Shown here: piece after piece, positions 35,821 through 64,000 of the stretch | Layout of the letters: every line of letters begins with the position of its first letter | How positions within the stretch are numbered: position 1 is the stretch's first letter | DNA from: Eledone cirrhosa | Taxonomy: Eukaryota | DNA: 64,000 nucleotides | Assembly: GCA_964016885.1 (NCBI GenBank) | Contig: OZ024759.1 | Coordinates: forward strand, 20,708,001 to 20,772,000 | Reading direction: 5' to 3' | Position numbers and translations under genes: made by a program | The notes under the pieces: model-generated | Told to the model about the DNA's origin: nothing | The model's database searches: none | What the model saw: only the letters and a program-made list of their open reading frames with translations

Positions 35821-35853
<33 letters not shown>

Positions 35854-36329: not shown

Positions 36330-36359
<30 letters not shown>

Positions 36360-36360
<1 letters not shown>

Positions 36361-36570
36361 GACAGTCGATCGACTTTCGTCAAATCGGACCGAGGAAACA
36401 ATGTTTCCGTTGGTCTCTCCTATTGCTAATACTATCTATCGGTTGCAACGCCAGGTAGAAGGAGCAATGTGAAGTAAAGTGTCTTGCTCAAGACATAAGG
36501 CATCGCCCGGTTCAGGAATTGAACTCACAACCTCACAATTGTGAATCCTCTTACGACTCAACCACGCGCC
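36360..36570 (-). mobile_element. tRNA-derived SINE family 3
   Basis: Homologous to 18991-19195. Confidence 0.85.
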
Positions 36571-40012: not shown

Positions 40013-43000
40013 GTTCGGTGATTCGGTTCGGTTCGGGTCGGTCGGTTTCGGGTCGGTCATTCGGTTCGGTTCGGGTCGGTCATTCGGTCGGTCATTCGTT
40101 CGGTTCGGTTGGTCGTTCGGTTCGGGTCGGTCATTCGGTTCGGTTCGGCTCGGTCATTCGGTTCGGTTTCGCGTCGGGTCGGTCATTCGGTTCGGTTCAG
40201 TTCCGGTCGATCATTCGGTCGGTCATTCGGTTCGGTTCGGATCGGGTCGGTCATTCGGTTCGGCTCGGTTCGGTTCGGGTCGGTCATTCGGTTCAGTCAT
40301 TCGAACGGTCATTCGGTTCGGTTCGGGTCGGTGATTCGGTTCGGTTCGGTGATTCGGTTCGGGTCGGTGATTCGGTTCGGTCATTCGGTCGGTCAGTCGG
40401 TTCGGTTCGGGTCGGTCATTCGGTTCGGTTCGTTTCCGGTCGGTCATTCGTTTCGGTTCGGGTCAGTCATTCGGTCGGTCATTCGGCTCGGTTCGGGTCG
40501 GAAATTCCGTCGGTCATTCGGTTCGGGTCGGTCATTCGGCTCGGTTCGGGTCGGTCATTCGGTTCGGTTCGGATCGGTCATTCGGTTCAGGTCGTTCGGT
40601 TCGGGTCGGCCATTCGGTTCGGTCATTCGGTTCGGTTCGGGTCGGTCATTCGGTTCGGTCATTCGGTTCGGGTCGGTCATTCGGTTCGGTTCCGGTCGGT
40701 CATTCGGTTCGGGTCGTTCCGTTCTGTTCGCTTCGGGTCGGTCATTCGGTTCGGTTCGGCTCGTTCATTCGGCTTGGTTCGGGTCGGAAATTCCGTCGGT
40801 CATTCGGTTCGGTTCGGATCGGTCATTCGGTCGTTTATTCGGGTTGGTCGTTCGGTTCGGGTCGGTCATTCGGTTCGGTTCGGCTCGGTCATCGGTTCGG
40901 ATCGGTCATTCGGTTCGGTCGTTACGTAGGGTTCGGCTCGGTTCGGTTCGGGTCGATCATTCGGTCGGTCATTTGGTTCGTTTCGGTTCGGATCGGTCAT
41001 TCGGTCGGTCATTCAGTCCGGTTCGGTTCCGGTCGATCATTCGGTCGCTCATTTGGTTCGGTGCTGTTCGGATCGGTCATTCGGTCGGTCATTCGGTTCG
41101 GTTCGGATCGGGTCGGTCATTCGGTTCGGTCGTTCCGTTCGGTTCGGGTCGGTTCGGTTCGGATCGGTCATTCGATCGGTCACTCGGTTCGGGTCGGTCA
41201 TTCGGTCAGTCATTCGGGTCGGTAAGTCGGTTCGGTTCGGGTCGGTCATTCGGTTCGGTTCGCAGCGGTCATTCGGTTCGGTTCGGGTCGGTCATTCGGT
41301 TTGGTTCGGGTCGGTCATTCGGTTCGGTCATTCGGTCGGTCATTCGGTTCGGTCATTCGGTCGGTCATTCGGTTCGGATCGGCTCGGTCATTCGGTTCGG
41401 TTCGGGTCGATCATTCGGTCGGTCATTCGGTTCGGTTCGGGTCGATCATTCGGTCGGTCATTCGGTTCGGTTCGGGTCGGTCATTCGGTTCGGTTCGGGT
41501 CGGTCATTCGGTTCGGTCGTTCCGCTCCGTTCGGGTCGGTCATTCGGTTCGGTTCGGTTCAGGTCGGTCATTCGGTTCGGTTCCGGTCATCGGTTCGGGT
41601 CGGTTATTCGGTTCGGTTCGGCTCGGTCATCGGTTCGGGTCGGTTATTCGGTTCGGTTCCGGTCGATCATTCGCATCGGTCATTCGGTTCGGTTCGGGTC
41701 GGTCATTCGGTCGGTCATTCGGTTCGGTTCGGGTCGGTCATTCGGTCGGTCATTCGGTTCGGTTCGGGTCGGTCATTCGGTCGGTCATTCGGTTCGGTTC
41801 GGGTCGGTCATTCGGTTCGGGTCGGTCATTCGGTTCGGTTCCGGTCGATCATTCGGTTCGGCTCGGTCATCGGTTCGGGTCGGTTATTCGGTTCGGTTCG
41901 GCTCGGTCATCGGTTCGGGTCGGTTATTCGGTTCGGTTCCGGTCGATCATTCGTTCGGTCATTTGGTTCGGTTCGGATCGGTCATTTGGTCGGTCATTCG
42001 GTTCGGTTCCGGTCGGTCATTCGGTTCGGATCGGTCATTCGGTTCGGTTCGGTCGTTACGTACGGTTCGGGTCGATCATTCGGTCGGTCATTTGGTTCGT
42101 TTCGGTTCGGATCGGTCATTCGGTCCGGTTCGGTTCCGGTCGATCATTCGGTCGGTCATTCGGTTCGGTCGTTCCGTTCGGTTCGTTTCGGGTCGGTCAT
42201 TCGGTCGACCATTCGGTTCGGGTCGGTTCGGATCGGTCATTCGATCGGTCATTCGGTTCGGGTCGGTCATTCGGTTCGGGTCTGTCATTCGGTTCGGTTC
42301 GGCTCGGTCATTCGGTTCGGTTCGCTCATTCGGTTCGGGTCGGTCATTCGGTTCGGGTCGGTCAGTCGGTTCGGGTCGATCATTCGGTTCGGTTCGCATC
42401 GGTCATTCGGTTCGGTTCGGGTCGGTCATTCGGTCGGTCATTCGGTTCGGCTCGGTCATTCGGTCAATCATTCGGTTCGGCTCGGTCAGTCATTCGGTTC
42501 GGCTCGGTCATTCGGTCGGTCGTTCCGTACGGTTCGGTTCGTTTCGGGTCGATCATTCGGTCGGTCATTTGGTTCGTTTCGGTTCGGATCGGTCATTCGG
42601 TCGGTCATTCGGTTCGGTTCGGTTCCGGTCGATTATTCGGATCGGTTCGGGTCGGTCATTCGGGTCGGTTCGGGTCGGTCATTCGGTCGGCCATTATTCG
42701 GTTCGGTTCGGGTCGGTCATTCGGTCGGCCATTATTCGGCTCGGTTCGGCTCGGTCATTCGGTCGGTCGGTCATTCGGTCATTCATTCATTCGGTCATTC
42801 ATTCATTCATTCAGTCATTTATTCGGTCATTCATTCGTTCATTTATTCGGTCATTCATTCGTTCATTTATTCGTTCATTCATTCGTTCATTCATTCGTTC
42901 ATTCGGTTCGGTCATTCGGTCGGTCATTCGGTTCGGTTCGGATCTGTCATTCCGTCGGTGATTCGGTTCGGATCAGTCATTCGGTCGGCTCATTCGGTAC

Positions 43001-46000
43001 GGTTCGGATCGGTCATTCGGTCGGTCATTCGGTTCGTTTCGGTGATTCGGTCGGTCATTCGGTTCGGTTCGGGTCGGTCATTCGGTCGGTCATTCAGTTC
43101 CGTTCAGTTCGGGTCGGTCATTCGGTTCGGTTCGGGTCGGTCATTCGGTTCGGGTCGGAAATTCCGTCGGTTATTCGGTTCGGTTCCGGTCGGTCATTCG
43201 GTTCGGTTCCGGTCGGTCATTCGGTTCGGATCGGTCATTCGGTTCGAGTCGGTCATTCGGTTCCGTTCGGGTCTGTCATTCGGTCAGTCATTCGGTTCGG
43301 TTCCGGTCGGTCATTCAGTTCGGTTCGGGTCGGTCATTCGGCTCGGTTCGGATCTGTCATTCGGTTCCGGTCGGTCATTCGGTTCCGGTCGGTCATTCGG
43401 TTCCGGTCGGTCATTCGGTTCGGTCATTCGGTCGGTCATTCGGTTCGGGTCGGTCGTTCGGTTCGGGTCGGTCATTCGGTTCTGTTTCGGTCGGTCATTC
43501 AGTTCGGTTCGGGTCGGTCATTCGGCTCGGTTCGGATCTGTCATTCGGTTTCGGTCGGTCATTCGGTTCGGTTCCGGTCGGTCATTCGGTTCGGTTCGGT
43601 CATTCGGTCGGTCATTCGGTTCGGGTCGGTCGTTCGGTTCGGGTCGGTCATTCGGTTCGGTTCGGGTCGGTCATTCGGCTCGGTTCGGGTCGGTCATTCG
43701 GTTCGGTTCGGTCATTCGGTTCGGTTCGGGTCGGTCATTCGGTTCGGTTCGGGTCGGTCATTCGGTTCGGTTCCGGTCGGTCATTCGGTTCGGGTCGTTC
43801 CGTTCTGTTCGCTTCGGGTCAGTCATTCGGTTCGGTTCGGCTCGATCATTCGGCTTGGTTCGGGTCGGAAATTCCGTCGGTCATTCGGTTCGGTTCGGAT
43901 CGGTCATTCGGTCGTTTATTCGGGTTGGTCGTTCGGTTCGGGTCGGTCATTCGGTTCGGCTCGGTCATCGGTTTGGGTCGGTTATTCGGTGCGGTTCCGG
44001 TCGATCATTCGGTCGGTCATTTGGTTCGGTTCGGATCGGTCATTCGGTCGGTCGTTCGGTTCGGTTCGGTCGTTACGTTCGGTTCGGTTCGGGTCGGTCA
44101 TTTGGTTCGTTTCGGTTCGGATCGGTCATTCGGTCGGTCATTCGGTCCGGTTCGGTTCCGGTCGATCATTCGGTCGCTCATTCGGTTCGGTCGTTCCGTT
44201 CGGTTCGGGTCGGTCATTCGGTCGGCCATTCGGGTCGGTTCGGTTCGGATCGGTCATACGATCGGTCACTCGGTTCGGGTCGGTCATTCGGTCAGTCATT
44301 CGGTACGGGTCGGTCAGTCGGTTCGGTTCGGGTCGGTCATTCGGTTCGGTTCGCATCGGTCATTCGGTTCGGGTCGGTCATTCGGTTCGGTTCGGGTCGG
44401 TCATTCGGTTCGGTCATTCGGTCGGTCATTCGGTTCGGTCATTCGGTCGGTCATTCGGTTCGGTCATTCGGTCGGTCATTCGTTTCGGATCGGCTCGGTC
44501 CTTCGGTTCGGTTCGGGTCGGTCATTCGGTCGGTCATTCGGTTCGGTTCGGGTCGGTCATTCGGTCGGTGATTCGGTTCGGGTCGGTCATTCGGTTCGGT
44601 CGTTCCGCTCCGTTCGGGTCGGTCATTCGGTTCGGTTCCGGTCGATCATTCGGTTCGGTTCTGCTCGATCATCGGTTCGGGTCGGTTATTCGGTTCGGTT
44701 CCGGTCGATCATTCGGTCGGTCATTCGGTTCGGTTCGGATCGGTCATTTGGTCGGTCATTCGGTTCGGTTCGGTTCCGGTCGATCATTCGGTCGGTCATT
44801 CGGTTCGGTTCGGATCGATCATTCGGTTCGGTTCGGTCGTTACGTACGGTTCGGTTCGGGTCGGTCATTCGGTACGTCATTTGGTTCGTTTCGGTTCGGA
44901 TCGGTCATTCGGTCCGGTTCGGTTCCGGTCGATCATTCGGTCGGTCATTTGGTTCGGTGCGGTTAGGATCGGCCATTCGGTCGGTCATTCGGTTCGGATC
45001 GGGTAGGTCATTCGGTTCGGTCGTTCCGTTCGGTTCGTTTCGGGTCGGTCATTCGGTCGGTCACTCGGTTCGGGTCGGTCATTCGGTTCGGGTCGGTGAG
45101 TCGGTTCGGGTCGATCATTCGGTTCGGTTCGCATCGGTCATTCGGTTCGGTTCGGGTCAGTCATTCGATTCGGTTCGGGTCGGTCACTCGGTCGGTCATT
45201 CGGTTCGGCTCGGTCATTCGGTCGGTCGTTCCGTACGGTTCGGTTCGGTCATTCTCTCGGTCATTCGGTTCGGCTCGGTTCGTTTCGGGTCGATCATTCG
45301 GTCGGTCATTTGGTTCGTTTCGGTTCGGATCGGTCATTCGGTCGGTCATTCGGTTCGGTTCGGTTCCGGTCGATTATTCGGATCGGTTCGGGTCGGTCAT
45401 TCGGTTCGGTTCCGGTCGGTCATAAGGTCGGTCATTCGGGTCGGTCATTCGGTCGGCCATTATTCGGTTCGGTTCGACTCGGTCATTCGGTCGGTCGGTC
45501 ATTCGGTTATTCATTCATTCGGTCATTCATTCATTCATTCATTTATTCGGTCATTCATTCGTTCATTTATTCGTTCATTCATTCGTTCATTCATTCGTTC
45601 ATTCGGTTCGGTTCGGATCTGTCATTCCGTCGGTGATTCGATTCGGATCAGTCATTCGGTCGGATCATTCGGTACGGTTCGGATCGGTCATTCGGTTCGG
45701 TTCGGGTCGGTCATTCGGTCGGTCATTCAGTTCCGTTCGGTTCGGGTCGATCATTCGGTTCGGTTCGGGTCGGAAATTCCGTCGGTTATTCGGTTCGGTT
45801 CCGGTCGGTCATTCGGTTCGGATCGGTCATTCGGTTCAGGTCGGTCATTCGGTTCCGTTCGGGTCTGTCATTCGGTCGGTCATTCGGTTCTGTTTCGGTC
45901 GGTCATTCAGTTCGGTTCGGGTCGGTCATTCGGCTCGGTTCGGATCTGTCATTCGGTTCCGGTCGGTCATTCGGTTCGGTTCGGGTCGGTCATTCGGTTC

Positions 46001-49000
46001 GTGTCGGTTATTCGGTTCGGTTCCGGTCGATCATTCGGTCGGTCATTTGGTTCGGTTCGGATCGGTCATTCGGTTCGGGTCGGTTATTCGGTTCGGTTCC
46101 GGTCGATCATTCTGTCGGTCATTCGGTTCGGTTCGGTCATTTGGTTCGGTTCTGTTCGGTCATTCGTTTCGGTTCCGGTCGGTCATTCGGCTCGGCGCGG
46201 TCAATCGGTCAGTCATTCGGTGCGGCTTGGTCATTCGGTTCGATTCGGTCGTTCCGTACGGTTCGGTTCGGTCATTTCGTACTGTTCGGTTCGGCTCGGT
46301 CATTCTGGCGGTCATTCGGTTCGGCTCGGTTCGTTTCGGGTCGATCATTTGGTTCGTTTCGGTTCGGATCGGTCATTCGGTTCGGTTCGATTCCGGTCGA
46401 TCATTCGGTCGGTCATTTGGCTCGGTGCGGTTCGGATCGGTCATTCGGTCCGGATCGGGTCGGTCATTCGGTTCGGTTCGGCTCGGTCGTCGGTTCGGGT
46501 CGGTTATTCGGTTCGGTTCCGGTCGATCATTCGGTCGGTCATTCGGTTCGGTTCGGATCGGTCATTCGGTCGGTCATTCGGTTCGGTTCGGTTCCGGTCG
46601 ATCATTCGGTCGGTCATTTGGTTCGGTTCGGATCGGTCATTTGGTCGGTCATTCGGTTCGGTCATTCGGTTCGGTTCGGTCGTTACGTACGGTTCGGTTC
46701 GGGTCGATCATTCGGTCGGTCATTTGGTTCGTTTCGGATCGGTCATTCGGTCCGGTTCGGTTCCGGTCGATCATTCGGTCGGTCATTTGGTTCGGTGCGG
46801 TTAGGATCGGCCATTCGGTCGGTCATTCGGTTCGGATCGGGTAGGTCATTCGGTTCGGTCGTTCCGTTCGGTTCGTTTCGGGTCGGTCATTCGGTCGGCC
46901 ATTCGGTTCGGGTCGGTTCGGATCGGTCATTCGATCGGTCACTCGGTCATTCTGGCGGTCATTCGGTTCGGCTCGATTCGTTTCGGTTCGGTCGATCATT
47001 TGGTTCGGATCGGTCATTCGGTCGGTCATTCGGTTCGGTTCGGTTCCGGTCGATCATTCGGTCGGTCATTTGGTTCGGTTCGGATCGGTCATTTGGTCGG
47101 TCATTCGGTTCGGTCATTCGGTTCGGTTCGGTCGTTACGTACGGTTCGGTTCGGGTCGATCATTCGGTCGGTCATTTGGTTCGTTTCGGATCGGTCATTC
47201 GGTCCGGTTCGGTTCCGGTCGATCATTCGGTCGGTCATTTGGTTCGGTGCGGTTAGGATCGGCCATTCGGTCGGTCATTCGGTTCGGATCGGGTAGGTCA
47301 TTCGGTTCGGTCGTTCCGTTCGGTTCGTTTCGGGTCGGTCATTCGGTCGGCCATTCGGTTCGGGTCGGTTCGGATCGGTCATTCGATCGGTCACTCGGTC
47401 ATTCTGGCGGTCATTCGGTTCGGCTCGATTCGTTTCGGTTCGGTCGATCATTTGGTTCGGTTCGGATCGGTCATTCGGTCGGTTATTCGGTTCGGTTCCG
47501 GTCGATCATTCGGTCGGTCATTTGGTTCGGTTCGGATCGGTCACTTGGTCGGTCATTCGGTCGGTCATTCGGTTCGGTTCGGATCGGTCATTCGTTTCGG
47601 TTCGGTCGTTACGTACGGCTCGGTTCGGTTCGGGTCGATCATTCGGTCGGTCATTTGGTTCGTTTCGGTTCGGATCTGTCATTCGGTCGGTCATTCGGTA
47701 CGGTTCGGTTCCGGTCGATCATTCGGTCGCTCATTTGGTTCGGTGCTGTTCGGATCGGTCATTCGGTCGGTCATTCGGTTCGGATCGGGTCGGTCATTCG
47801 GTTCGGTCGTTCCGGTCGGTCATTCGATCGGTCACTCGGTTCGGGTCGGTCATTCGGTCAGTCATTCGGTTCGGGTCGGTGAGTCGGTTCGGTTCGGGTC
47901 GGTCATTCGGTTCGGTTCGCATCGGTCATTCGGTTCGGTTCGGGTCAGTCATTCGGCTCGGGTCGGTCATTCGGTTCGGTCATTCGGTCGGTCATTCGGT
48001 TCGGTCATTCGGTCGGTCATTCGGTTCGGATCGGCTCGGTCATTCGGTTCGGGTCGGTCATTCGGTCGGTCATTCGGTTCGGTTCGGGTCGGTCATTCGG
48101 TCGGTCATTCGGTTCGGGTCGGTCATTCGGTTCGGTCGTTCCGCTCCGTTCGGGTCGGTCATTCGGTTCGGCTCGGTTCAGGTCGGTCATTCGGTTCGGT
48201 TCCGGTCGGTCGTTCGGTTCGCATCGGTCATTTGGTTCGGTTCGGGTCGGTCATTCGGTCGGTCATTCGGTTCGGTTCGGTCATTCGGTCGGTCATTCGG
48301 TTCGGTTAGGGTCGGTATTTCGGTCGGTCATTCGGTTCGGGTCGGTCATTCGGTTCGGGTCGGTCATTCGGTTCGGTTCTGGTCGATCATTCGGTCGGTC
48401 ATTTGGTTCGGTTCGGATCGGTCATTCGGTCGGTCATTCGGTTCGGATCGGGTCGGTCATTCGGTCGGTCATTCGGTTCGCTTCGGGTCGGTCATTTGGT
48501 TCGGTCCGGCTCGGTTCGGGTCGGAAATTCCGTCGGTCATCCGGTTCGGTTCGGTTCCGGTCGGTCATTCGGTTTGGTTCGGATCGGTCATTCGGTTCGG
48601 TTCGGGTCGATCATTCGGTCGGTCATTTGGTTCGTTTCGGTTCGGATCGGTCATTCGGTCGGTCATTCGGTCCGGTTCGGTTCCGGTCGCTCATTCGGTC
48701 GGTCATTTGGTTCGGTGCGATTAGGATCGGTCATTCGGTCGGTCATTCGGTTCGGTCGTTCCGTTCGGTTCGGTTCGAGTCGGTCATTCGGTCGGCCATT
48801 CGGGTCGGTTCGGATCGGTCATTCGATCGGTCACTCGGTTCGGGTCGGTGATTCGGTTCGGGTCTGTCATTCGGTTCGGTTCGGCTCGGTCATTCGGTTC
48901 GTTTCGGGTCGCTCATTCGGTTCGGGTCGGTCAGTCGGTTGGTCATTCGGTTCGGTCATTCGGTTCGGTCATTCGGTCGGTCATTCGTTTCGGATCGGGT

Positions 49001-52000
49001 CGGTCATTCGGTCTGTCATTCGGTTCGGTTCGGGTCGGTCATTCGGTCGGTCATTCGGTTCGGTTCGGGTCGGTCATTCGGTCGGTGATTCGGTTCGGTT
49101 CGGGTCGGTCATTCGGTTCGGTCGTTCCGCTCCGTTCGGGTCGGTCATTCGGTTCGGTTCGGTTCAGGTCGGTCATTCGGTTCGGTTCGGTTCAGGTCGG
49201 TCATTCGGTTCGGTTCCGGTCGGTCGTTCGGTTCGCATCGGTCATTCGGTTCGGTTCGGGTCGGTCATTCGGTTCGGTTAGGGTCGGTATTTCGGTCGGT
49301 CATTCGGTTCGGGTCGGTCATTCGGTCGGTCATTCGGTTCGGGTCGGTCATTCGGTTCGGTTCCGGTCGATCATTCGGTTCGGTTCTGCTCGGTCATCGG
49401 TTCGGGTCGGTTATTCGGTTCGGTTCCGGTCGATCATTCGGTCGGTCATTTGGTTCGGTTCGGTTCGGATCGGTCATTCGGTTCGGTTCGGTTCCGGTTG
49501 ATCATTCGGTCTGTCAGTTGGTTCGGTTCGGATCGGTCATTCGGTTCGGTTCGGTTCCGGTCGATCATTCGGTTCGGATCGGTCATTTGGTCGGTCATTC
49601 GGTTCGGTTCGGTTCCGGTCGATCATTCGGTCGGTCATTCGGTTCGGTTCGGATCGGTCATTCGGTTCGGTTCGGTCGTTACGTACGGTTCGGTTCGGGT
49701 CGATCATTCGGTAGGTCATTTGGTTCGTTTCGGTTCGGATCGGTCATTCGGTCCGGTTCGGTTCCGGTCGATCATTCGGTCGGTCATTTGGTTCGGTGCG
49801 GTTAGGATCGGCCATTCGGTCGGTCATTCGGTTCGGATCGGGTCGGTCATTCGGTTCGGTCGTTCCGTTCGGTTCGTTTCGGGTCGGTCATTCGGTCGGT
49901 CACTCGGTTCGGGTCGGTGATTCGGTTCGGGTCTGTCATTCGGTTCGGTTCGGCTCGGTCATTCGGTTCGGTTCGCTCATTCGGTTCGGTTCGGGTCGGT
50001 CATTCGGTTCGGTTCGGTCGTTACGTACGGTTCGGCTCGGTTCGGTTCGGGTCGGTCATTCGGTCGGTCATTCGGTTCGGTTCGGGTCGGTCATTCGGTC
50101 GGTCATTCGGTTCGGTTCGGTCGTTCCGCTCCGTTCGGGTCGGTCATTCGGTTCGGCTCGGTTCAGGTCGGTCATTCGGTTCGGTTCCGGTCGGTCGTTC
50201 GGTTCGCATCGGTCATTCGGTTCGGTTCGGGTCGGTCATTCGGTCGGTCATTCGGTTCGGTTCGGTCATTCGGTTCGGTCATTCGGTCGGTCATTCGGTT
50301 CGGTTAGGGTCGGTATTTCGGTCGGTCATTCGGTTCGGGTCGGTCATTCGGTCGGTCATTCGGTTCGGGTCGGTCATTCGGTTCGGTTCTGGTCGATCAT
50401 TCGGTCGGTCATTTGGTTCGGTTCGGATCGGTCATTCGGTCGGTCATTCGGTTCGGATCGGGTCGGTCATTCGGTCGGTCATTCGGTTCGCTTCGGGTCG
50501 GTCATTTGGTTCGGTTCGGCTCGGTCATTCGGCTCGGTTCGGGTCGGAAATTCCGTCGGTCATCCGGTTCGGTTCGGTTCCGGTCGGTCATTCGGTTCGG
50601 TTCGGATCGGTCATTCGGTTCGGCTCGGTTCGGTTCGGGTCGATCATTCGGTCGGTCATTTGGTTCGTTTCGGTTCGGATCGGTCATTCGGTCGGTCATT
50701 CGGTCCGGTTCGGTTCCGGTCGCTCATTCGGTCGGTCATTTCGTTCGGTGCGATTAGGATCGGTCGTTCCGTTCGGTTCGGTTCGAGTCGGTCATTCGAT
50801 CGGTCACTCGGTTCGGGTCGGTGATTCGGTTCGGGTCTGTCATTCGGTTCGGTTCGGCTCGGTCATTCGGTTCGGTTCGGCTCGGTCATTCGGTTCGTTT
50901 CGGGTCGCTCATTCGGTTCGGGTCGGTCAGTCGGTTGGTCATTCGGTTCGGTCATTCGGTTCGGTCATTCGGTTCGGTCATTCGGTCGGTCATTCGTTTC
51001 GGATCGGGTCGGTCATTCGGTCTGTCATTCGGTTCGGTTCGGGTCGGTCATTCGGTCGGTCATTCGGTTCGGTTCGGGTCGGTCATTCGGTCGGTGATTC
51101 GGTTCGGTTCGGGTCGGTCATTCGGTTCGGTCGTTCCGCTCCGTTCGGGTCGGTCATTCGGTTCGGTTCGGTTCAGGTCGGTCATTCGGTTCGGTTCAGG
51201 TCGGTCATTCGGTTCGGTTCCGGTCGGTCGTTCGGTTCGCATCGGTCATTCGGTTCGGTTCGGTTCGGGTCGGTCATCGGTTCGGGTCGGTTATTCGGTT
51301 CGGTTCCGGTCGATCATTCGGTCGGTCATTTGGTTCGGTTCGGTTCGGATCGGTCATTCGGTCGGTCATTCGGTTCGGTTCCGTTCCGGTCGATCATTCG
51401 GTCTGTCAGTTGGTTCGGTTCGGATCGGTCATTCGGTTCGGTTCGGTTCCGGTCGATCATTCGGTTCGGTTCTGCTCGGTCATCGGTTCGGGTCGGTTAT
51501 TCGGTTCGGTTCCGGTCGATCATTCGGTCGGTCATTTGGTTCGGTTCGGTTCGGATCGGTCATTCGGTCGGTCATTCGGTTCGGTTCGGTTCCGGTCGAT
51601 CATTCGGTCTGTCAGTTGGTTCGGTTCGGATCGGTCATTCGGTTCGGTTCGGTTCCGGTCGATCATTCGGTTCGGTTCTGCTCGGTCATCGGTTCGGGTC
51701 GGTTATTCGGTTCGGTTCCGGTCGATCATTCGGTCGGTCATTTGGTTCGGTTCGGTTCGGATAGGTCATTCGGTCGGTCATTCGGTTCGGTTCGGTTCCG
51801 GTCGATCATTCGGTTCGGTTCGGATCGGTCATTTGGTCGGTCATTCGGTACGGTTCGGTTCCGGTCGGTCATTCGGTTCGGTTCGGATCGGTCATTCGGT
51901 TCGGTCGTTACGTACGGTTCGGTTCGGGTCGATCATTCGGTAGGTCATTTGGTTCGTTTCGGTTCGGATCGGTCATTCGGTCCGGTTCGGTTCCGGTCGA

Positions 52001-55000
52001 TCATTCGGTCGGTCATTTGGTTCGGTGCGGTTAGGATCGGCCATTCGGTCGGTCATTCGGTTCGGATAGGGTCGGTCATTCGGTTCGGTTCGCTCATTCG
52101 GTTCGGTTCGGGTCGGTCATTCGGTTCGGTTCGGTCGTTACGTACGGTTCGGCTCGGTTCGGTTCGGGTCGATCATTCGGTCGGTCATTTGGTTCGTTTC
52201 GGTTCGGATCGGTCATTCGGTCGGTCATTCGGTACGGTTCGGTTCCGGTCGATCATTCGGTCGCTCATTTGGTTCGGTGCTGTTCGGATCGGTCATTCGG
52301 TCGGTCATTCGGTTCGGATCGGGTCGGTCATTCGGTTCGGTCGGTCATTCGATCGGTCACTCGGTTCGGGTCGGTCATTCGGTCAGTCATTCGGTTCGGG
52401 TCGGTGAGTCGGTTCGGTTCGGGTCGGTCATTCGGTTCGGTTCGCATCGGTCATTCGGTTCGGTTCGGGTCAGTCATTCGGTTCGGGTCGGTCATTCGGT
52501 TCGGTCATTCGGTCGGTCATTCGGTTCGGTCATTCGGTCGGTCATTCGGTTCGGATCGGCTCGGTCCGGTTCGGGTCGGTCATTCGGTCGGTCATTCGGT
52601 TCGGTTCGGGTCGGTCATTCGGTCGGTCATTCGGTTCGGTTCGGTCGTTCCGCTCCGTTCGGGTCGGTCATTCGGTTCGGCTCGGTTCAGGTCGGTCATT
52701 CGGTTCGGTTCCGGTCGGTCGTTCGGTTCGCATCGGTCATTCGGTTCGGTTCGGGTCGGTCATTCGGTCGGTCATTCGGTTCGGTTCGGTCATTCGGTTC
52801 GGTCATTCGGTCGGTCATTCGGTTCGGTTAGGGTCGGTATTTCGGTCGGTCATTCGGTTCGGGTCGGTCATTCGGTCGGTCATTCGGTTCGGGTCGGTCA
52901 TTCGGTTCGGTTCTGGTCGATCATTCGGTCGGTCATTTGGTTCGGTTCGGATCGGTAATTCGGTCGGTCATTCGGTTCGGATCGGGTCGGTCATTCGGTC
53001 GGTCATTCGGTTCGCTTCGGGTCGGTCATTTGGTTCGGTTCGGCTCGGTCATTCGGCTCGGTTCGGGTCGGAAATTCCGTCGGTCATCCGGTTCGGTTCG
53101 GTTCCGGTCGGTCATTCGGTTCGGTTCGGATCGGTCATTCGGTTCGGCTCGGTTCGGTTCGGGTCGATCATTCGGTCGGTCATTTGGTTCGTTTCGGTTC
53201 GGATCGGTCATTCGGTCGGTCATTCGGTCCGGTTCGGTTCCGGTCGCTCATTCGGTCGGTCATTTGGTTCGGTGCGATTAGGATCGGTCGTTCCGTTCGG
53301 TTCGGTTCGAGTCGGTCATTCGGTCGGCCATTCGGGTCGGTTCGGATCGGTCATTCGATCGGTCACTCGGTTCGGGTCGGTGATTCGGTTCGGCTCGGTC
53401 ATTCGGTTCGGTTCGGCTCGGTCATTCGGTTCGGTTCGGCTCGGTCATTCGGTTCGTTTCGGGTCGCTCATTCGGTTCGGGTCGGTCAGTCGGTTGGTCA
53501 TTCGGTTCGGTCATTCGGTCGGTCATTCGTTTCGGATCGGGTCGGTCATTCGGTCTGTCATTCGGTTCGGTTCGGGTCGGTCATTCGTTCGGTCATTCGG
53601 TTCGGTTCGGGTCGGTCATTCGGTCGGTGATTCGGTTCGGTTCGGGTCGGTCATTCGGTTCGGTCGTTCCGCTCCGTTCGGGTCGGTCATTCGGTTCGGT
53701 TCGGTTCAGGTCGGTCATTCGGTTCGGTTCAGGTCGGTCATTCGGTTCGGTTCCGGTCGGTCGTTCGGTTCGCATCGGTCATTCGGTTCGGTTCGGGTCG
53801 GTCATCGGTTCGGGTCGGTTATTCGGTTCGGTTCCGGTCGATCATTCGGTCGGTCATTCGGTTCGGTTCGGTTCCGGTCGATCATTCGGTCTGTCAGTTG
53901 GTTCGGTTCGGATCGGTCATTCGGTTCGGTTCGGTTCCGGTCGATCATTCGGTTCGGTTCTGCTCGGTCATCGGTTCGGGTCGGTTATTCGGTTCGGTTC
54001 CGGTCGATCATTCGGTCGGTCATTTGGTTCGGTTCGGTTCGGATCGGTCATTCGGTTCGGTTCGGTTCCGGTCGATCATTCGGTCTGTCAGTTGGTTCGG
54101 TTCGGATCGGTCATTCGGTTCGGTTCGGTTCCGGTCGATCATTCGGTTCGGTTCTGCTCGGTCATCGGTTCGGGTCGGTTATTCGGTTCGGTTCCGGTCG
54201 ATCATTCGGTCGGTCATTTGGTTCGGTTCGGTTCGGATCGGTCATTCGGTCGGTCATTCGGTTCGGTTCGGTTCCGGTCGATCATTCGGTTCGGTTCGGA
54301 TCGGTCATTTGGTCGGTCATTCGGTACGGTTCGGTTCCGGTCGGTCATTCGGTTCGGTTCGGATCGGTCATTCGGTTCGGTCGTTACGTACGGTTCGGTT
54401 CGGGTCGATCATTCGGTAGGTCATTTGGTTCGTTTCGGTTCGGATCGGTCATTCGGTCCGGTTCGGTTCCGGTCGATCATTCGGTCGGTCATTTGGTTCG
54501 GTGCGGTTAGGATCGGCCATTCGGTCGGTCATTCGGTTCGGATCGGGTCGGTCATTCGGTTCGGTCGTTCCGTTCGGTTCGTTTCGGGTCGGTCATTCGG
54601 TCGGTCACTCGGTTCGGGTCGGTGATTCGGTTCGGTTCGGTTCGGCTCGGTCATTCGGTTCGGTTCGCTCATTCGGTTCGGGTCGGTCATTCGGTTCGGG
54701 TCGGTGAGTCGGTTCGGGTCGGTCATTCGGTTCGGTTCGCATCGGTCATTCGGTTCGGTTCGGGTCAGTCATTCGATTCGGTTCGGGTCGGTCATTCGGT
54801 CGGTCATTCGGTTCGGCTCGGTCATTCGGTCGTTCCGTACGGTTCGGTTCGGTCATTCTCTCGGTCATTCGGTTCGGCTCGGTTCGTTTCGGGTCGATCA
54901 TTCGGTCGGTCATTTGGTTCGTTTCGGTTCGGATCGGTCATTCGGTCGGTCATTCGGTTCGGTTCGGTTCCGGTCGATTATTCGGATCGGTTCGGGTCGG

Positions 55001-58000
55001 TCATTCGGTTCGGTTCCGGTCGGTCATAAGGTCGGTCATTCGGGTCGGTCATTCGGTCGGCCATTATTCGGTTCGGTTCGACTCGGTCATTCGGTCGGTC
55101 GGTCATTCGGTTATTCATTCATTCGGTCATTCATTCATTCATTCATTTATTCGGTCATTCATTCGTTCATTTATTCGTTCATTCATTCGTTCATTCATTC
55201 GTTCATTCGGTTCGGTCATTCGGTTCGGGTCGGTCATTCGGTTCGGTTCCGGTCTGTCATTCAGTTCGGATCGGTCATTCGGTCGGTCATTCGGTTCCGG
55301 TCTGTCATTCAGTTCGGATCGGTCATTCGGTCGGTCATTCGGTTCGGTTCGGATCTGTCATTCCGTCGGTGATTCGATTCGGATCAGTCATTCGGTCGGA
55401 TCATTCGGTACGGTTCGGATCGGTCATTCGGTCGGTCATTCGGTTCGGATCGGTCATTCGGTCGGTCTTTCGGTTCGGTTCTGGTCGGTCATTCGGTTCG
55501 GTTCGGAAATTCCGTCGGTTATTCGGTTTGGTTCCGGTCGGTCATTCGGTTCGGATCGGTCATTCGGTTCGGGTCGGTCATTCGGTTCCGTTCGGTTCGG
55601 GTCGATCATTCGGTTCGGTTCGGGTCGGAAATTCCGTCGGTTATTCGGTTCGGTTCCGGTCGGTCATTCGGTTCGGATCGGTCATTCGGTTCGGGTCGGT
55701 CATTCGGTTCCGTTCGGGTCTGTCATTCGGTCGGTCATTCGGTTCGGTTCCGGTCGGTCATTCGGTTCTGTTTCGGTCGGTCATTCAGTTCGGTTCGGGT
55801 CGGTCATTCGGCTCGGTTCGGATCTGTCATTCGGTTCCGGTCGGTCATTCGGTTCGGTTCGGTTATTCGGTTCGGGTCGGTCGTTCGGTTCGGGTCGGTC
55901 ATTCGGTTCGTTTCGGGTCGGTCATTCGGTTCGTGTCGGTTATTCGGTTCGGTTCCGGTCGATCATTCTGTCGGTCATTTGGTTCGGTTCGGTTCGGTCA
56001 TTTGGTTCGGTTCGGTTCGGTCATTCGTTTCGGTTCCGGTCGGTCATTCGGTTCGGCGCGGTCAATCGGTCAGTCATTCGGTGCGGCTTGGTCATTCCGT
56101 TCGATTCGGTCGTTCCGTACGGTTCGGTTCGGTCCTTCCCTACTGTTCTGTTCGGCTCGGTCATTCTGGCGGTCATTCGGTTCGGCTCGGTTCGTTTCGG
56201 GTCGATCATTTGGTTCGTTTCGGATCGGTCATTCGGTCCGGTTCGGTTCCGGTCGATCATTCGGTCGGTCATTTGGTTCGGTGCGGTTAGGATCGGCCAT
56301 TCGGTCGGTCATTCGGTTCGGATCGGGTAGGTCATTCGGTTCGGTCGTTCCGTTCGGTTCGTTTCGGGTCGGTCATTCGGTCGGCCATTCGGTTCGGGTC
56401 GGTTCGGATCGGTCATTCGATCGGTCACTCGGTCATTCTGGCGGTCATTCGGTTCGGCTCGATTCGTTTCGGTTCGGTCGATCATTTGGTTCGGTTCGGA
56501 TCGGTCATTCGGTCGGTTATTCGGTTCGGTTCCGGTCGATCATTCGGTCGGTCATTTGGTTCGGTTCGGATCGGTCACTTGGTCGGTCATTCGGTCGGTC
56601 ATTCGGTTCGGTTCGGATCGGTCATTCGTTTCGGTTCGGTCGTTACGTACGGCTCGGTTCGGTTCGGGTCGATCATTCGGTCGGTCATTTGGTTCGTTTC
56701 GGTTCGGATCTGTCATTCGGTCGGTCATTCGGTACGGTTCGGTTCCGGTCGATCATTCGGTCGCTCATTTGGTTCGGTGCTGTTCGGATCGGTCATTCGG
56801 TCGGTCATTCGGTTCGGATCGGGTCGGTCATTCGGTTCGGTCGTTCCGGTCGGTCATTCGATCGGTCACTCGGTTCGGGTCGGTCATTCGGTCAGTCATT
56901 CGGTTCGGGTCGGTGAGTCGGTTCGGTTCGGGTCGGTCATTCGGTTCGGTTCGCATCGGTCATTCGGTTCGGTTCGGGTCAGTCATTCGGCTCGGGTCGG
57001 TCATTCGGTTCGGTCATTCGGTCGGTCATTCGGTTCGGTCATTCGGTCGGTCATTCGGTTCGGATCGGCTCGGTCATTCGGTTCGGGTCGGTCATTCGGT
57101 CGGTCATTCGGTTCGGTTCGGGTCGGTCATTCGGTCGGTCATTCGGTTCGGGTCGGTCATTCGGTCGGTCATTCGGTTCGGGTCGGTCATTCGGTTCGGT
57201 CGTTCCGCTCCGTTCGGGTCGGTCATTCGGTTCGGCTCGGTTCAGGTCGGTCATTCGGTTCGGTTCCGGTCGGTCGTTCGGTTCGCATCGGTCATTTGGT
57301 TCGGTTCGGGTCGGTCATTCGGTCGGTCATTCGGTTCGGTTCGGTCATTCGGTCGGTCATTCGGTTCGGTTAGGGTCGGTATTTCGGTCGGTCATTCGGT
57401 TCGGGTCGGTCATTCGGTTCGGGTCGGTCATTCGGTTCGGTTCTGGTCGATCATTCGGTCGGTCATTTGGTTCGGTTCGGATCGGTCATTCGGTCGGTCA
57501 TTCGGTCGGTCATTCGGTTCGGATCGGGTCGGTCATTCGGTCGGTCATTCGGTTCGCTTCGGGTCGGTCATTTGGTTCGGTCCGGCTCGGTTCGGGTCGG
57601 AAATTCCGTCGGTCATCCGGTTCGGTTCGGTTCCGGTCGGTCATTCGGTTTGGTTCGGATCGGTCATTCGGTTCGGTTCGGGTCGATCATTCGGTCGGTC
57701 ATTTGGTTCGTTTCGGTTCGGATCGGTCATTCGGTCGGTCATTCGGTCCGGTTCGGTTCCGGTCGCTCATTCGGTCGGTCATTTGGTTCGGTGCGATTAG
57801 GATCGGTCATTCGGTCGGTCATTCGGTTCGGTCGTTCCGTTCGGTTCGGTTCGAGTCGGTCATTCGGTCGGCCATTCGGGTCGGTTCGGATCGGTCATTC
57901 GATCGGTCACTCGGTTCGGGTCGGTGATTCGGTTCGGGTCTGTCATTCGGTTCGGTTCGGCTCGGTCATTCGGTTCGTTTCGGGTCGCTCATTCGGTTCG

Positions 58001-61000
58001 GGTCGGTCAGTCGGTTGGTCATTCGGTTCGGTCATTCGGTTCGGTCATTCGGTCGGTCATTCGTTTCGGATCGGGTCGGTCATTCGGTCTGTCATTCGGT
58101 TCGGTTCGGGTCGGTCATTCGGTCGGTCATTCGGTTCGGTTCGGGTCGGTCATTCGGTCGGTGATTCGGTTCGGTTCGGGTCGGTCATTCGGTTCGGTCG
58201 TTCCGCTCCGTTCGGGTCGGTCATTCGGTTCGGTTCGGTTCAGGTCGGTCATTCGGTTCGGTTCGGTTCAGGTCGGTCATTCGGTTCGGTTCCGGTCGGT
58301 CGTTCGGTTCGCATCGGTCATTCGGTTCGGTTCGGGTCGGTCATTCGGTTCGGTTAGGGTCGGTATTTCGGTCGGTCATTCGGTTCGGGTCGGTCATTCG
58401 GTCGGTCATTCGGTTCGGGTCGGTCATTCGGTTCGGTTCCGGTCGATCATTCGGTTCGGTTCTGCTCGGTCATCGGTTCGGGTCGGTTATTCGGTTCGGT
58501 TCCGGTCGATCATTCGGTCGGTCATTTGGTTCGGTTCGGTTCGGATCGGTCATTCGGTTCGGTTCGGTTCCGGTTGATCATTCGGTCTGTCAGTTGGTTC
58601 GGTTCGGATCGGTCATTCGGTTCGGTTCGGTTCCGGTCGATCATTCGGTTCGGATCGGTCATTTGGTCGGTCATTCGGTTCGGTTCGGTTCCGGTCGATC
58701 ATTCGGTCGGTCATTCGGTTCGGTTCGGATCGGTCATTCGGTTCGGTTCGGTCGTTACGTACGGTTCGGTTCGGGTCGATCATTCGGTAGGTCATTTGGT
58801 TCGTTTCGGTTCGGATCGGTCATTCGGTCCGGTTCGGTTCCGGTCGATCATTCGGTCGGTCATTTGGTTCGGTGCGGTTAGGATCGGCCATTCGGTCGGT
58901 CATTCGGTTCGGATCGGGTCGGTCATTCGGTTCGGTCGTTCCGTTCGGTTCGTTTCGGGTCGGTCATTCGGTCGGTCACTCGGTTCGGGTCGGTGATTCG
59001 GTTCGGGTCTGTCATTCGGTTCGGTTCGGCTCGGTCATTCGGTTCGGTTCGCTCATTCGGTTCGGTTCGGGTCGGTCATTCGGTTCGGTTCGGTCGTTAC
59101 GTACGGTTCGGCTCGGTTCGGTTCGGGTCGGTCATTCGGTCGGTCATTCGGTTCGGTTCGGGTCGGTCATTCGGTCGGTCATTCGGTTCGGTTCGGTCGT
59201 TCCGCTCCGTTCGGGTCGGTCATTCGGTTCGGCTCGGTTCAGGTCGGTCATTCGGTTCGGTTCCGGTCGGTCGTTCGGTTCGCATCGGTCATTCGGTTCG
59301 GTTCGGGTCGGTCATTCGGTCGGTCATTCGGTTCGGTTCGGTCATTCGGTTCGGTCATTCGGTCGGTCATTCGGTTCGGTTAGGGTCGGTATTTCGGTCG
59401 GTCATTCGGTTCGGGTCGGTCATTCGGTCGGTCATTCGGTTCGGGTCGGTCATTCGGTTCGGTTCTGGTCGATCATTCGGTCGGTCATTTGGTTCGGTTC
59501 GGATCGGTCATTCGGTCGGTCATTCGGTTCGGATCGGGTCGGTCATTCGGTCGGTCATTCGGTTCGCTTCGGGTCGGTCATTTGGTTCGGTTCGGCTCGG
59601 TCATTCGGCTCGGTTCGGGTCGGAAATTCCGTCGGTCATCCGGTTCGGTTCGGTTCCGGTCGGTCATTCGGTTCGGTTCGGATCGGTCATTCGGTTCGGC
59701 TCGGTTCGGTTCGGGTCGATCATTCGGTCGGTCATTTGGTTCGTTTCGGTTCGGATCGGTCATTCGGTCGGTCATTCGGTCCGGTTCGGTTCCGGTCGCT
59801 CATTCGGTCGGTCATTTCGTTCGGTGCGATTAGGATCGGTCGTTCCGTTCGGTTCGGTTCGAGTCGGTCATTCGATCGGTCACTCGGTTCGGGTCGGTGA
59901 TTCGGTTCGGGTCTGTCATTCGGTTCGGTTCGGCTCGGTCATTCGGTTCGGTTCGGCTCGGTCATTCGGTTCGTTTCGGGTCGCTCATTCGGTTCGGGTC
60001 GGTCAGTCGGTTGGTCATTCGGTTCGGTCATTCGGTTCGGTCATTCGGTTCGGTCATTCGGTCGGTCATTCGTTTCGGATCGGGTCGGTCATTCGGTCTG
60101 TCATTCGGTTCGGTTCGGGTCGGTCATTCGGTCGGTCATTCGGTTCGGTTCGGGTCGGTCATTCGGTCGGTGATTCGGTTCGGTTCGGGTCGGTCATTCG
60201 GTTCGGTCGTTCCGCTCCGTTCGGGTCGGTCATTCGGTTCGGTTCGGTTCAGGTCGGTCATTCGGTTCGGTTCAGGTCGGTCATTCGGTTCGGTTCCGGT
60301 CGGTCGTTCGGTTCGCATCGGTCATTCGGTTCGGTTCGGTTCGGGTCGGTCATCGGTTCGGGTCGGTTATTCGGTTCGGTTCCGGTCGATCATTCGGTCG
60401 GTCATTTGGTTCGGTTCGGTTCGGATCGGTCATTCGGTCGGTCATTCGGTTCGGTTCCGTTCCGGTCGATCATTCGGTCTGTCAGTTGGTTCGGTTCGGA
60501 TCGGTCATTCGGTTCGGTTCGGTTCCGGTCGATCATTCGGTTCGGTTCTGCTCGGTCATCGGTTCGGGTCGGTTATTCGGTTCGGTTCCGGTCGATCATT
60601 CGGTCGGTCATTTGGTTCGGTTCGGTTCGGATCGGTCATTCGGTCGGTCATTCGGTTCGGTTCGGTTCCGGTCGATCATTCGGTCTGTCAGTTGGTTCGG
60701 TTCGGATCGGTCATTCGGTTCGGTTCGGTTCCGGTCGATCATTCGGTTCGGTTCTGCTCGGTCATCGGTTCGGGTCGGTTATTCGGTTCGGTTCCGGTCG
60801 ATCATTCGGTCGGTCATTTGGTTCGGTTCGGTTCGGATAGGTCATTCGGTCGGTCATTCGGTTCGGTTCGGTTCCGGTCGATCATTCGGTTCGGTTCGGA
60901 TCGGTCATTTGGTCGGTCATTCGGTACGGTTCGGTTCCGGTCGGTCATTCGGTTCGGTTCGGATCGGTCATTCGGTTCGGTCGTTACGTACGGTTCGGTT

Positions 61001-64000
61001 CGGGTCGATCATTCGGTAGGTCATTTGGTTCGTTTCGGTTCGGATCGGTCATTCGGTCCGGTTCGGTTCCGGTCGATCATTCGGTCGGTCATTTGGTTCG
61101 GTGCGGTTAGGATCGGCCATTCGGTCGGTCATTCGGTTCGGATAGGGTCGGTCATTCGGTTCGGTTCGCTCATTCGGTTCGGTTCGGGTCGGTCATTCGG
61201 TTCGGTTCGGTCGTTACGTACGGTTCGGCTCGGTTCGGTTCGGGTCGATCATTCGGTCGGTCATTTGGTTCGTTTCGGTTCGGATCGGTCATTCGGTCGG
61301 TCATTCGGTACGGTTCGGTTCCGGTCGATCATTCGGTCGCTCATTTGGTTCGGTGCTGTTCGGATCGGTCATTCGGTCGGTCATTCGGTTCGGATCGGGT
61401 CGGTCATTCGGTTCGGTCGGTCATTCGATCGGTCACTCGGTTCGGGTCGGTCATTCGGTCAGTCATTCGGTTCGGGTCGGTGAGTCGGTTCGGTTCGGGT
61501 CGGTCATTCGGTTCGGTTCGCATCGGTCATTCGGTTCGGTTCGGGTCAGTCATTCGGTTCGGGTCGGTCATTCGGTTCGGTCATTCGGTCGGTCATTCGG
61601 TTCGGTCATTCGGTCGGTCATTCGGTTCGGATCGGCTCGGTCCGGTTCGGGTCGGTCATTCGGTCGGTCATTCGGTTCGGTTCGGGTCGGTCATTCGGTC
61701 GGTCATTCGGTTCGGTTCGGTCGTTCCGCTCCGTTCGGGTCGGTCATTCGGTTCGGCTCGGTTCAGGTCGGTCATTCGGTTCGGTTCCGGTCGGTCGTTC
61801 GGTTCGCATCGGTCATTCGGTTCGGTTCGGGTCGGTCATTCGGTCGGTCATTCGGTTCGGTTCGGTCATTCGGTTCGGTCATTCGGTCGGTCATTCGGTT
61901 CGGTTAGGGTCGGTATTTCGGTCGGTCATTCGGTTCGGGTCGGTCATTCGGTCGGTCATTCGGTTCGGGTCGGTCATTCGGTTCGGTTCTGGTCGATCAT
62001 TCGGTCGGTCATTTGGTTCGGTTCGGATCGGTAATTCGGTCGGTCATTCGGTTCGGATCGGGTCGGTCATTCGGTCGGTCATTCGGTTCGCTTCGGGTCG
62101 GTCATTTGGTTCGGTTCGGCTCGGTCATTCGGCTCGGTTCGGGTCGGAAATTCCGTCGGTCATCCGGTTCGGTTCGGTTCCGGTCGGTCATTCGGTTCGG
62201 TTCGGATCGGTCATTCGGTTCGGCTCGGTTCGGTTCGGGTCGATCATTCGGTCGGTCATTTGGTTCGTTTCGGTTCGGATCGGTCATTCGGTCGGTCATT
62301 CGGTCCGGTTCGGTTCCGGTCGCTCATTCGGTCGGTCATTTGGTTCGGTGCGATTAGGATCGGTCGTTCCGTTCGGTTCGGTTCGAGTCGGTCATTCGGT
62401 CGGCCATTCGGGTCGGTTCGGATCGGTCATTCGATCGGTCACTCGGTTCGGGTCGGTGATTCGGTTCGGCTCGGTCATTCGGTTCGGTTCGGCTCGGTCA
62501 TTCGGTTCGGTTCGGCTCGGTCATTCGGTTCGTTTCGGGTCGCTCATTCGGTTCGGGTCGGTCAGTCGGTTGGTCATTCGGTTCGGTCATTCGGTCGGTC
62601 ATTCGTTTCGGATCGGGTCGGTCATTCGGTCTGTCATTCGGTTCGGTTCGGGTCGGTCATTCGTTCGGTCATTCGGTTCGGTTCGGGTCGGTCATTCGGT
62701 CGGTGATTCGGTTCGGTTCGGGTCGGTCATTCGGTTCGGTCGTTCCGCTCCGTTCGGGTCGGTCATTCGGTTCGGTTCGGTTCAGGTCGGTCATTCGGTT
62801 CGGTTCAGGTCGGTCATTCGGTTCGGTTCCGGTCGGTCGTTCGGTTCGCATCGGTCATTCGGTTCGGTTCGGGTCGGTCATCGGTTCGGGTCGGTTATTC
62901 GGTTCGGTTCCGGTCGATCATTCGGTCGGTCATTCGGTTCGGTTCGGTTCCGGTCGATCATTCGGTCTGTCAGTTGGTTCGGTTCGGATCGGTCATTCGG
63001 TTCGGTTCGGTTCCGGTCGATCATTCGGTTCGGTTCTGCTCGGTCATCGGTTCGGGTCGGTTATTCGGTTCGGTTCCGGTCGATCATTCGGTCGGTCATT
63101 TGGTTCGGTTCGGTTCGGATCGGTCATTCGGTCGGTCATTCGGTTCGGTTCGGTTCCGGTCGATCATTCGGTCTGTCAGTTGGTTCGGTTCGGATCGGTC
63201 ATTCGGTTCGGTTCGGTTCCGGTCGATCATTCGGTTCGGTTCTGCTCGGTCATCGGTTCGGGTCGGTTATTCGGTTCGGTTCCGGTCGATCATTCGGTCG
63301 GTCATTTGGTTCGGTTCGGTTCGGATCGGTCATTCGGTCGGTCATTCGGTTCGGTTCGGTTCCGGTCGATCATTCGGTTCGGTTCGGATCGGTCATTTGG
63401 TCGGTCATTCGGTACGGTTCGGTTCCGGTCGGTCATTCGGTTCGGTTCGGATCGGTCATTCGGTTCGGTCGTTACGTACGGTTCGGTTCGGGTCGATCAT
63501 TCGGTAGGTCATTTGGTTCGTTTCGGTTCGGATCGGTCATTCGGTCCGGTTCGGTTCCGGTCGATCATTCGGTCGGTCATTTGGTTCGGTGCGGTTAGGA
63601 TCGGCCATTCGGTCGGTCATTCGGTTCGGATCGGGTCGGTCATTCGGTTCGGTCGTTCCGTTCGGTTCGTTTCGGGTCGGTCATTCGGTCGGTCACTCGG
63701 TTCGGGTCGGTGATTCGGTTCGGTTCGGTTCGGCTCGGTCATTCGGTTCGGTTCGCTCATTCGGTTCGGGTCGGTCATTCGGTTCGGGTCGGTGAGTCGG
63801 TTCGGGTCGGTCATTCGGTTCGGTTCGCATCGGTCATTCGGTTCGGTTCGGGTCAGTCATTCGATTCGGTTCGGGTCGGTCATTCGGTCGGTCATTCGGT
63901 TCGGCTCGGTCATTCGGTCGTTCCGTACGGTTCGGTTCGGTCATTCTCTCGGTCATTCGGTTCGGCTCGGTTCGTTTCGGGTCGATCATTCGGTCGGTCA
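40013..64000 (+). repeat. CpG-rich complex satellite (TTCGG / GGTC / CATT words) with a ~9.08-kb higher-order repeat; runs off the window
   Basis: Continuous TTCGGTTCGGGTCGGTCATTCGG-type sequence; rare variants recur at 9034-9088 bp offsets. Confidence 0.97.

What the first reader, a model, noticed from the sequence alone, without database searches (positions are those of the whole stretch)
47177..64000. ~9.08-kb higher-order duplication inside the simple satellite
Seen: 47177-54912 is repeated at 56211-64000. The offset steps 9034, 9064, 9076, 9088 through 30-, 12- and 12-bp word indels (identical ORFs at 48848/57924, 49917/58993, 50821/59897). Private variants recur at +9076: GGTAATTCGG at 52955/62031 and GGATAGGG at 52064/61140. 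Inference: a young, very large higher-order repeat, as in active centromeric arrays. Prediction: CATAAGG near 64.11 kb and a (CATT)n island near 64.2 kb, just beyond the window.
Basis: seen in the sequence. Interest (0 to 1): 0.7.

Follow-up and report, generated by a model that had tools for sequence, protein, structure and literature searches.

The report
Young two-copy duplication inside small satellite
A 9,000-base stretch of a small simple-repeat array is present twice, head to tail, with no base substitutions; it likely arose recently by one misaligned DNA repair or exchange, which is ordinary repeat turnover and probably not a centromere, though an assembly error is not excluded.

Summary
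Copy A (47172-56223) and copy B (56206-65311, ending 1.3 kb past the window) align over 9,052 bases with 0 substitutions and three word indels (30, 12, 12). CATAAGG is at 64113 and the CATT island at 64216. But there are only two copies, and the array (about 29 kb) ends 3.6 kb later. The satellite occurs at only two places in the 3.0-Gb genome, both on this contig (84 kb in all). The same contig starts with an unrelated 23-bp satellite seen in 4 of 4 samples from 0.3 to 2.1 Mb, a better centromere candidate. The breakpoints share an 18-base word (0.7% of random joins do as well) and there is no gap. Older 0.45-3.8 kb duplications form an age series, including a 3,782-bp pair with one substitution in the sister array. 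Best reading: one very young homology-directed tandem duplication in a nested tandem repeat (0.72). An assembly false duplication stays open (0.22): public contigs showed no junction and about one dose, from a sample that may be another animal. The scan noted like duplications on other DNA of this genome. Ordinary; low interest.

The parts
40013..64000 (+). Simple-word satellite array (words TTCGG, TCGG, TCATTCGG and variants; GC 57%, CpG observed/expected 2.0). It continues past the window to about 68,870 (L011:4870), 28.9 kb in all, with (CTCA)n/(CATT)n microsatellite at both ends.
47172..56223 (+). Copy A of the duplicated unit (9,052 bp, counting the shared 18-base word at both ends)
56206..64000 (+). 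Copy B of the duplicated unit; runs on to extended position 65311 (L011:1311), 9,106 bp
56206..56223 (+). A/B junction: 18-base word shared by the unit's start (47172-47189) and end (65294-65311); 12 31-mers starting at 56194-56205 exist in this array only because of the junction
   Evidence: null distribution
57112..57141 (+). 30-bp tandem word present in B only (likely gained in B; exact placement within the words is ambiguous)
57482..57493 (+). 12-bp tandem word present in B only (third copy; A and the four other listed places have two, so likely gained in B)
63120..63131 (+). 12-bp word present in B and absent from A at 54044 (likely lost in A; both forms occur among older paralogues)
47616..54543 (+). 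Three older 2.0-2.5 kb sub-blocks inside copy A (offsets about 1998, 2524, 4534), carried along into copy B
46550..47460 (+). Separate 452-bp tandem duplication (459-bp exact run) overlapping the left breakpoint
55128..55205 (+). (CATT)n island of copy A; others at 42780, 45524, 64216 and 67845 mark the oldest repeat level (spacings 2.7, 9.6, 9.1, 3.6 kb)

Best explanation
The array holds two head-to-tail copies of a 9.05-kb segment with no substitutions between them, likely made by one recent out-of-register homology-directed event (misaligned strand invasion during break repair, or unequal sister exchange). Shown: two copies only; an 18-base word shared at both breakpoints, with about 50 further bases of similar word order to its right; no gap; three whole-word indels; older nested duplications of graded age; a near-perfect 3.8-kb pair in the sister array. 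Inferred: a DNA end at the unit's end paired with the similar words 9 kb upstream and the segment was copied again; afterwards slippage added 30 and 12 bases to B and probably removed 12 from A. The same process repeated at 0.2, 0.45, 2-2.5 and 9 kb built the nested structure. The event is likely young enough to be polymorphic. No function is needed; it is a locus-specific nested tandem repeat in the middle of a chromosome-scale contig.
For: 0 substitutions in 9,052 bases and three tandem word indels. Breakpoint word of 18 bases: 0.72% of 200,000 random joins in this array share that much; the sister pair shares 11 (2.3%). No N in the window or the next 40 kb. Age series: 3,782-bp pair with 1 substitution and 0 gaps; 2.5-kb offset pair 7 substitutions/5 gaps; 2.0-kb 4/10; 3.3-kb 28/18. 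In 8 older pairs, gaps are 85 of 174 differences and only 6 of 85 are 1 bp, so three word indels and no substitution has probability about 0.12 and looks like this array's natural spectrum. Changes seem to lie on both copies. Kilobase, register-preserving tandem duplications by homology-directed repair are documented in Arabidopsis mutation-accumulation lines (10.1101/2025.06.02.657473, passages).
Against: No read was seen crossing the junction. In the only deep public sample (runs X1-X3, contigs), words private to the duplicated unit had depth 12.6 (X1), 4.9 and 5.8 (X2), 11 (X3), against 10.5, 10.7 and 15.1 for nearly single-copy words outside it: about one dose, not two. That fits a different animal without the duplication, but also a false duplication if it is the assembled animal. 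The 8 calibration pairs were picked from the 30 chains and are not independent. Unequal exchange and break-repair slippage cannot be told apart from one haplotype.
Confidence: 0.72

Rival explanations
1. Assembly false duplication: the segment exists once per chromosome and was written twice, either as two near-identical haplotypes joined in tandem or as one haplotype with word-number consensus errors.
For: Near-perfect identity and exactly two copies. One-dose depth for unit-private words in X1-X3. False duplications remain in long-read assemblies and may be joined by wrongly filled gaps (PMC9516828, passages).
Against: No assembly gap. The exact overlap at the join is only 18 bases, far too short for a read-overlap join, yet longer than 99.3% of random joins. 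Differences are whole words, not 1-bp errors. The sister array has a similar pair with one substitution and a graded older series. Sample S1 carries words absent from both assembled arrays (2 of 5 tested were absent and of single-copy depth, 1 more absent, 2 present in the sister array), so it holds at least one other haplotype and may be another animal.
Confidence: 0.22
2. The 9-kb unit is a nascent centromeric higher-order repeat and this locus carries the kinetochore of its chromosome.
For: Nested structure and very young duplications resemble homogenising centromere arrays; no host exon was found among 87 of 173 candidate frames scanned nearby.
Against: Two copies only; 29 kb (84 kb with the sister array, 178 kb apart); not found on any other contig; no fixed monomer; contig depths of multi-copy words are of the order expected from the assembled copy numbers, so no sign of a collapsed megabase array. 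An AT-rich 23-bp satellite with 92-94% matches fills 4 of 4 samples from 0.3 to 2.1 Mb of the same contig. [quoted passage not shown]
Confidence: 0.05
3. The long open frames in the array encode a repeat protein duplicated with the unit.
For: Stop-free stretches up to 1,252 codons on the + strand.
Against: The + strand is A-poor (2,160 A in 28,850) and has 97 stop triplets against 1,500 on the other strand. Common indel sizes of 5, 10, 13 and 23 bp do not keep frame.
Confidence: 0.01

Closest known systems
Nested tandem repeats (NTRs) of human HSat2/HSat3 (10.1101/2021.07.12.452052; passages)
   Same: Simple CATTC-like words without a fixed monomer, organised in multi-kilobase units whose period varies along the array. 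The CATTC/CATTCG words and (CATT)n ends are a surface likeness.
   Different: Invertebrate-type genome, no sign of common descent (not tested); 29 kb instead of hundreds of kb to tens of Mb; the largest unit occurs twice; CpG excess with few transitions (33 of 89 substitutions).
Kilobase tandem duplications in Arabidopsis CEN178 arrays (10.1101/2025.06.02.657473; passages)
   Same: Insertion identical to adjacent sequence, breakpoints in repeat register, homology-directed origin proposed.
   Different: There 1-31 units of 178 bp (mean 1,870 bp) in true centromeres; here 9.05 kb in a small array with irregular words and no evidence of centromere function.
Human alpha-satellite higher-order repeat arrays (same paper as NTRs)
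   Same: Repeats of repeats with near-identical largest units.
   Different: HORs have a discrete number of similar-length monomers and active arrays of 340 kb to 5 Mb; here no monomer, two copies, 18 kb.
False duplications in genome assemblies (PMC9516828; passages)
   Same: Adjacent near-identical pair on one scaffold.
   Different: No gap between the copies; read depth and discordant pairs of the assembled animal not testable here.

Membership tests
Centromeric higher-order repeat array | Unit made of a discrete number of similar-length monomers | tested here: not met
   Words of 4-13 bases in irregular order; spacings 18, 23, 30, 35, 63, 206 coexist
Centromeric higher-order repeat array | Unit repeated many times over hundreds of kb | tested here: not met
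   Two copies, 18.1 kb, in a 28.9-kb array
Centromeric higher-order repeat array | Copies nearly identical | tested here: met
   0 substitutions in 9,052 bases
Centromeric higher-order repeat array | Largest homogeneous array of its chromosome | tested here: not met
   23-bp satellite in 4 of 4 samples from 0.3 to 2.1 Mb, out of 60 samples along the contig; continuity between samples not checked
Centromeric higher-order repeat array | CENP-A occupancy | not testable with these tools
   No chromatin data
Nested tandem repeat (works like HSat2/3 NTRs) | Simple-word origin, no fixed monomer | tested here: met
   Token counts; (CTCA)n/(CATT)n ends and islands
Nested tandem repeat (works like HSat2/3 NTRs) | Multi-kb periods that vary along the array | tested here: met
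   Offsets 452, 1998, 2524, 9034-9088 here; 1.9, 3.3, 3.8 kb in the sister array
Homology-directed tandem duplication | Head-to-tail copy with homology at the breakpoint | tested here: met
   18 shared bases, P=0.0072 against random joins
Homology-directed tandem duplication | Junction present in raw DNA molecules | tested here: inconclusive
   Only filtered contigs of one sample; none listed across the junction
Assembly false duplication | Gap between the copies | tested here: not met
   No N in the window or 40 kb beyond
Assembly false duplication | Halved read depth in the assembled individual | tested here: inconclusive
   One-dose depth in X1-X3, but contig depth is no copy number and the sample's relation to the assembly is unknown

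The most novel reading that the evidence does not exclude
The two CpG-rich arrays (55 kb and 29 kb) form a small chromosome-specific centromere or neocentromere caught at the birth of a 9-kb higher-order repeat, with the 440-bp direct repeat around the sister array recording how the satellite was seeded into new places.
Probability: 0.05. Interest if true: 0.6.

Novelty: new member of a known kind. Interest (0 to 1): 0.18.

Why it matters
Little on its own: young kilobase duplications are how satellite arrays grow. The locus is a tidy, fully bounded example in which word slippage and substitutions can be counted against each other over a graded series of duplications, and the junction gives a simple presence/absence marker for measuring satellite turnover among individuals. 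It would matter more only if CENP-A mapped here.

Tried and rejected
Read support: the look-up of sequencing runs gave 3 holders of one sample (share 0.29-0.30) and 3 RAD runs by species label. The bin 56183-56273 with the junction had depth 0.41, 0, 0 in X1-X3, but it also lacks cover over sequence shared with other paralogues and the tool filters records, so the hole proves nothing. Fitting contig depth to one-copy and two-copy models on the 24 listed records was split: X1 fitted two copies more evenly, X3 one copy. Only 24 of 684 and 24 of 1,255 pieces were shown. Gene context: 87 of 173 candidate frames scanned against Pfam gave one LINE reverse transcriptase and three frames with sub-cutoff hits or none otherwise (blank); short exons would be missed, so this does not show a gene desert. 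Literature: searches for octopus with satellite DNA/centromere/heterochromatin terms and for the 15-base core word (0 papers) listed nothing on this satellite; the library lacks most subscription papers and no supplements were read. The search of earlier findings near the place gave nothing and by sequence one irrelevant bacterial note. The organism label 'octopus-like' is recalled from the look of the microsatellites and SINEs and repeated in earlier scan notes; it was not tested here.
Full report
What is there. The window is G000:C20:20,708,001-20,772,000 of a 3.0-Gb genome, on a 37.3-Mb contig. From 40,013 the sequence is a GC-rich satellite of short words (TTCGG 22.5%, TCGG 17.5%, TCATTCGG 17.3% of 4,263 tokens). 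It continues past the window and ends at about 68,870 in a (CATT)/(CTCA) microsatellite like the one at its start, so it is 28.9 kb long. I call the genome octopus-like from recall and from earlier scan notes; I did not test that.

The observation. Exact-match diagonals at 9034, 9064, 9076 and 9088 are as stated. With the next 10 kb added, the duplication is copy A 47172-56223 and copy B 56206-65311. They align over 9,052 bases with no mismatch and three insertions in B of 30, 12 and 12 bases, each a tandem copy of the neighbouring word. The predicted CATAAGG (64113) and CATT island (64216) are present. There is no third copy: after 65311 the sequence is an older, diverged block and the array ends 3.6 kb later. 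The pair covers 63% of the array. The 'ORFs' are a by-product of an A-poor strand (97 against 1,500 stop triplets).

Anatomy. Rare landmark words show the levels. CATT islands at 42780, 45524, 55128, 64216 and 67845 mark an old unit of 2.7-3.6 kb. One such unit was stretched to 9.6 kb by internal duplications, among them three 2.0-2.5 kb sub-blocks (4 substitutions/10 gaps at offset 1998; 7/5 at 2524; 18/15 at 4534) and a 452-bp pair (3/4). Then 9.05 kb was copied once. The unit's start, junction and end share an 18-base word, followed by about 50 bases of similar word order. That word occurs 31 times in the array, but only 0.72% of 200,000 random joins share 18 or more bases. The join is therefore homology-guided.

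Indels. The second insertion gives B three copies of a 12-mer where A and four other listed places have two, so B likely gained it. The 30-mer gives B three double units where A and the two closest paralogues have two. For the third, B matches an older sub-block over 380 bases and A over 226, and the long form is the commoner, so A likely lost it, though the short form also exists at 49447. In 8 older pairs chosen from the 30 chains (3 from this array, 5 from the sister), gaps are 85 of 174 differences and 6 of 85 are single-base. Three word indels with no substitution has probability about 0.12 under that mix. Zero substitutions bounds divergence below 3.3e-4 per site at 95%. With an assumed rate near 1e-8 per site per generation (not measured for this animal) that is under about 17,000 generations, unless gene conversion reset it.

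Family and context. A 16-base core word has 1,094 exact matches in the genome, all on the + strand; 427 are in this array and 667 in a sister array at C20:20.514-20.570 Mb, which accounts for all. The sister array (55.3 kb) has a 3,782-bp tandem pair with one substitution and an 11-base shared word, and many older 1-2.4 kb pairs. So near-perfect multi-kb pairs are the young end of a series in this family. Of 60 samples of 1.5 kb along the contig, 11 were tandem repeat from end to end; the four at 0.3-2.1 Mb were one AT-rich 23-bp satellite with 92-94% matches, and seven were other local arrays. This array is one of many local arrays, and the contig has a far larger candidate for its centromere. 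No host exon turned up in 87 of 173 candidate frames scanned, a weak test.

Real or artefact. For real: no gap; a join with more homology than chance but far too little for a read-overlap error; whole-word differences on both copies; the graded series. Against: no junction read was seen. The only deep public data were contigs of three runs of one sample. They confirm the satellite and some private words, for example 82 bases at 56104-56185 with no mismatch. Depth of unit-private words (12.6; 4.9 and 5.8; 11) was no higher than that of nearly single-copy words outside the unit (10.5; 10.7; 15.1); one further X3 record at 17.2 shares words with the sister array. That sample seems to hold the unit once. 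It also holds words found in neither assembled array, so it may be another animal, in which case the duplication is simply polymorphic; if it is the assembled animal, the pair is false. Contig depth is not a copy number and library bias differed between runs, so I treat this as a weak hint. False duplications are marked by half depth, gaps and discordant pairs (PMC9516828, passages); only the gap could be tested, and it is absent.

Mechanism and odds. Most likely (0.72): one recent out-of-register homology-directed event, then word slippage. Arabidopsis mutation-accumulation lines show kilobase register-preserving tandem duplications and implicate homology-directed repair (10.1101/2025.06.02.657473, passages). 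Assembly false duplication 0.22; nascent centromeric HOR 0.05; coding repeat 0.01.

Comparison. It works like the nested tandem repeats of HSat2/3, a term proposed for multi-kb units without discrete monomers (10.1101/2021.07.12.452052, passages). It fails the tests for a centromeric HOR array that could be run (monomer, copy number, size). Higher-order patterns are common in maize satellite arrays and do not mark centromere function (PMC13011684, abstract). Four searches found no paper on this satellite; no supplements were read. Earlier scan notes on other DNA of this genome reached like readings for other arrays and mention much larger satellites; they are unchecked leads and prompted my sampling of the contig.

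Verdict. Observation confirmed, centromere inference not supported. A new member of a known kind: a young tandem duplication in a small locus-specific nested satellite. Interest 0.18.

Noticed in passing
G000:C20:20514196-20569544 (L021-L024, L015, L016): Sister array of the same satellite, 55.3 kb, same strand, 178 kb upstream; holds a 3,782-bp tandem duplication (20544756-20552330) with one A/T substitution and an 11-base shared word at the breakpoints.
   Followed up: partly
G000:C20:20513759-20514195 and 20569545-20570001 (L021, L016): The sister array is flanked by a roughly 440-bp direct repeat of non-satellite DNA, with few differences in its first 250 bases, like an outsized target-site duplication; it suggests insertion by template switching or growth inside an older tandem duplication. 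A contig of run X2 carries the array-to-flank seam (table 7).
   Followed up: partly
G000:C20:300001-2101500 (L025-L028): AT-rich 23-bp satellite, 92-94% matches, in 4 of 4 samples at the start of the contig; a better centromere or terminal heterochromatin candidate.
   Followed up: partly
window 40013-64000: CpG observed/expected is 2.0 in both arrays against 0.42 in the flank, and transitions are 33 of 89 substitutions, so the satellite shows no methylation-driven decay.
   Followed up: no
G000:C20:20571001-20582500 (L017, L018): An unrelated AT-rich array of about 11 kb next to the sister array has its own 3.1-kb period with exact runs up to 620 bp.
   Followed up: no
window 12745-16872, 26237-28000, 207-828, 30366-31222: Other minisatellites: 31 bp x134, mixed 59/43 bp, 123 bp x5 and 94 bp x9; longest exact internal repeats 256 and 176 bp in the first two.
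   Followed up: no
L021:2-1723 (-); window 35485-36455: LINE-type reverse transcriptase frame of 574 aa (Pfam RVT_1, E 2.4e-32) 2.5 kb before the sister array; a short frame with a sub-cutoff C2H2 finger in the window, probably a retroelement remnant.
   Followed up: no
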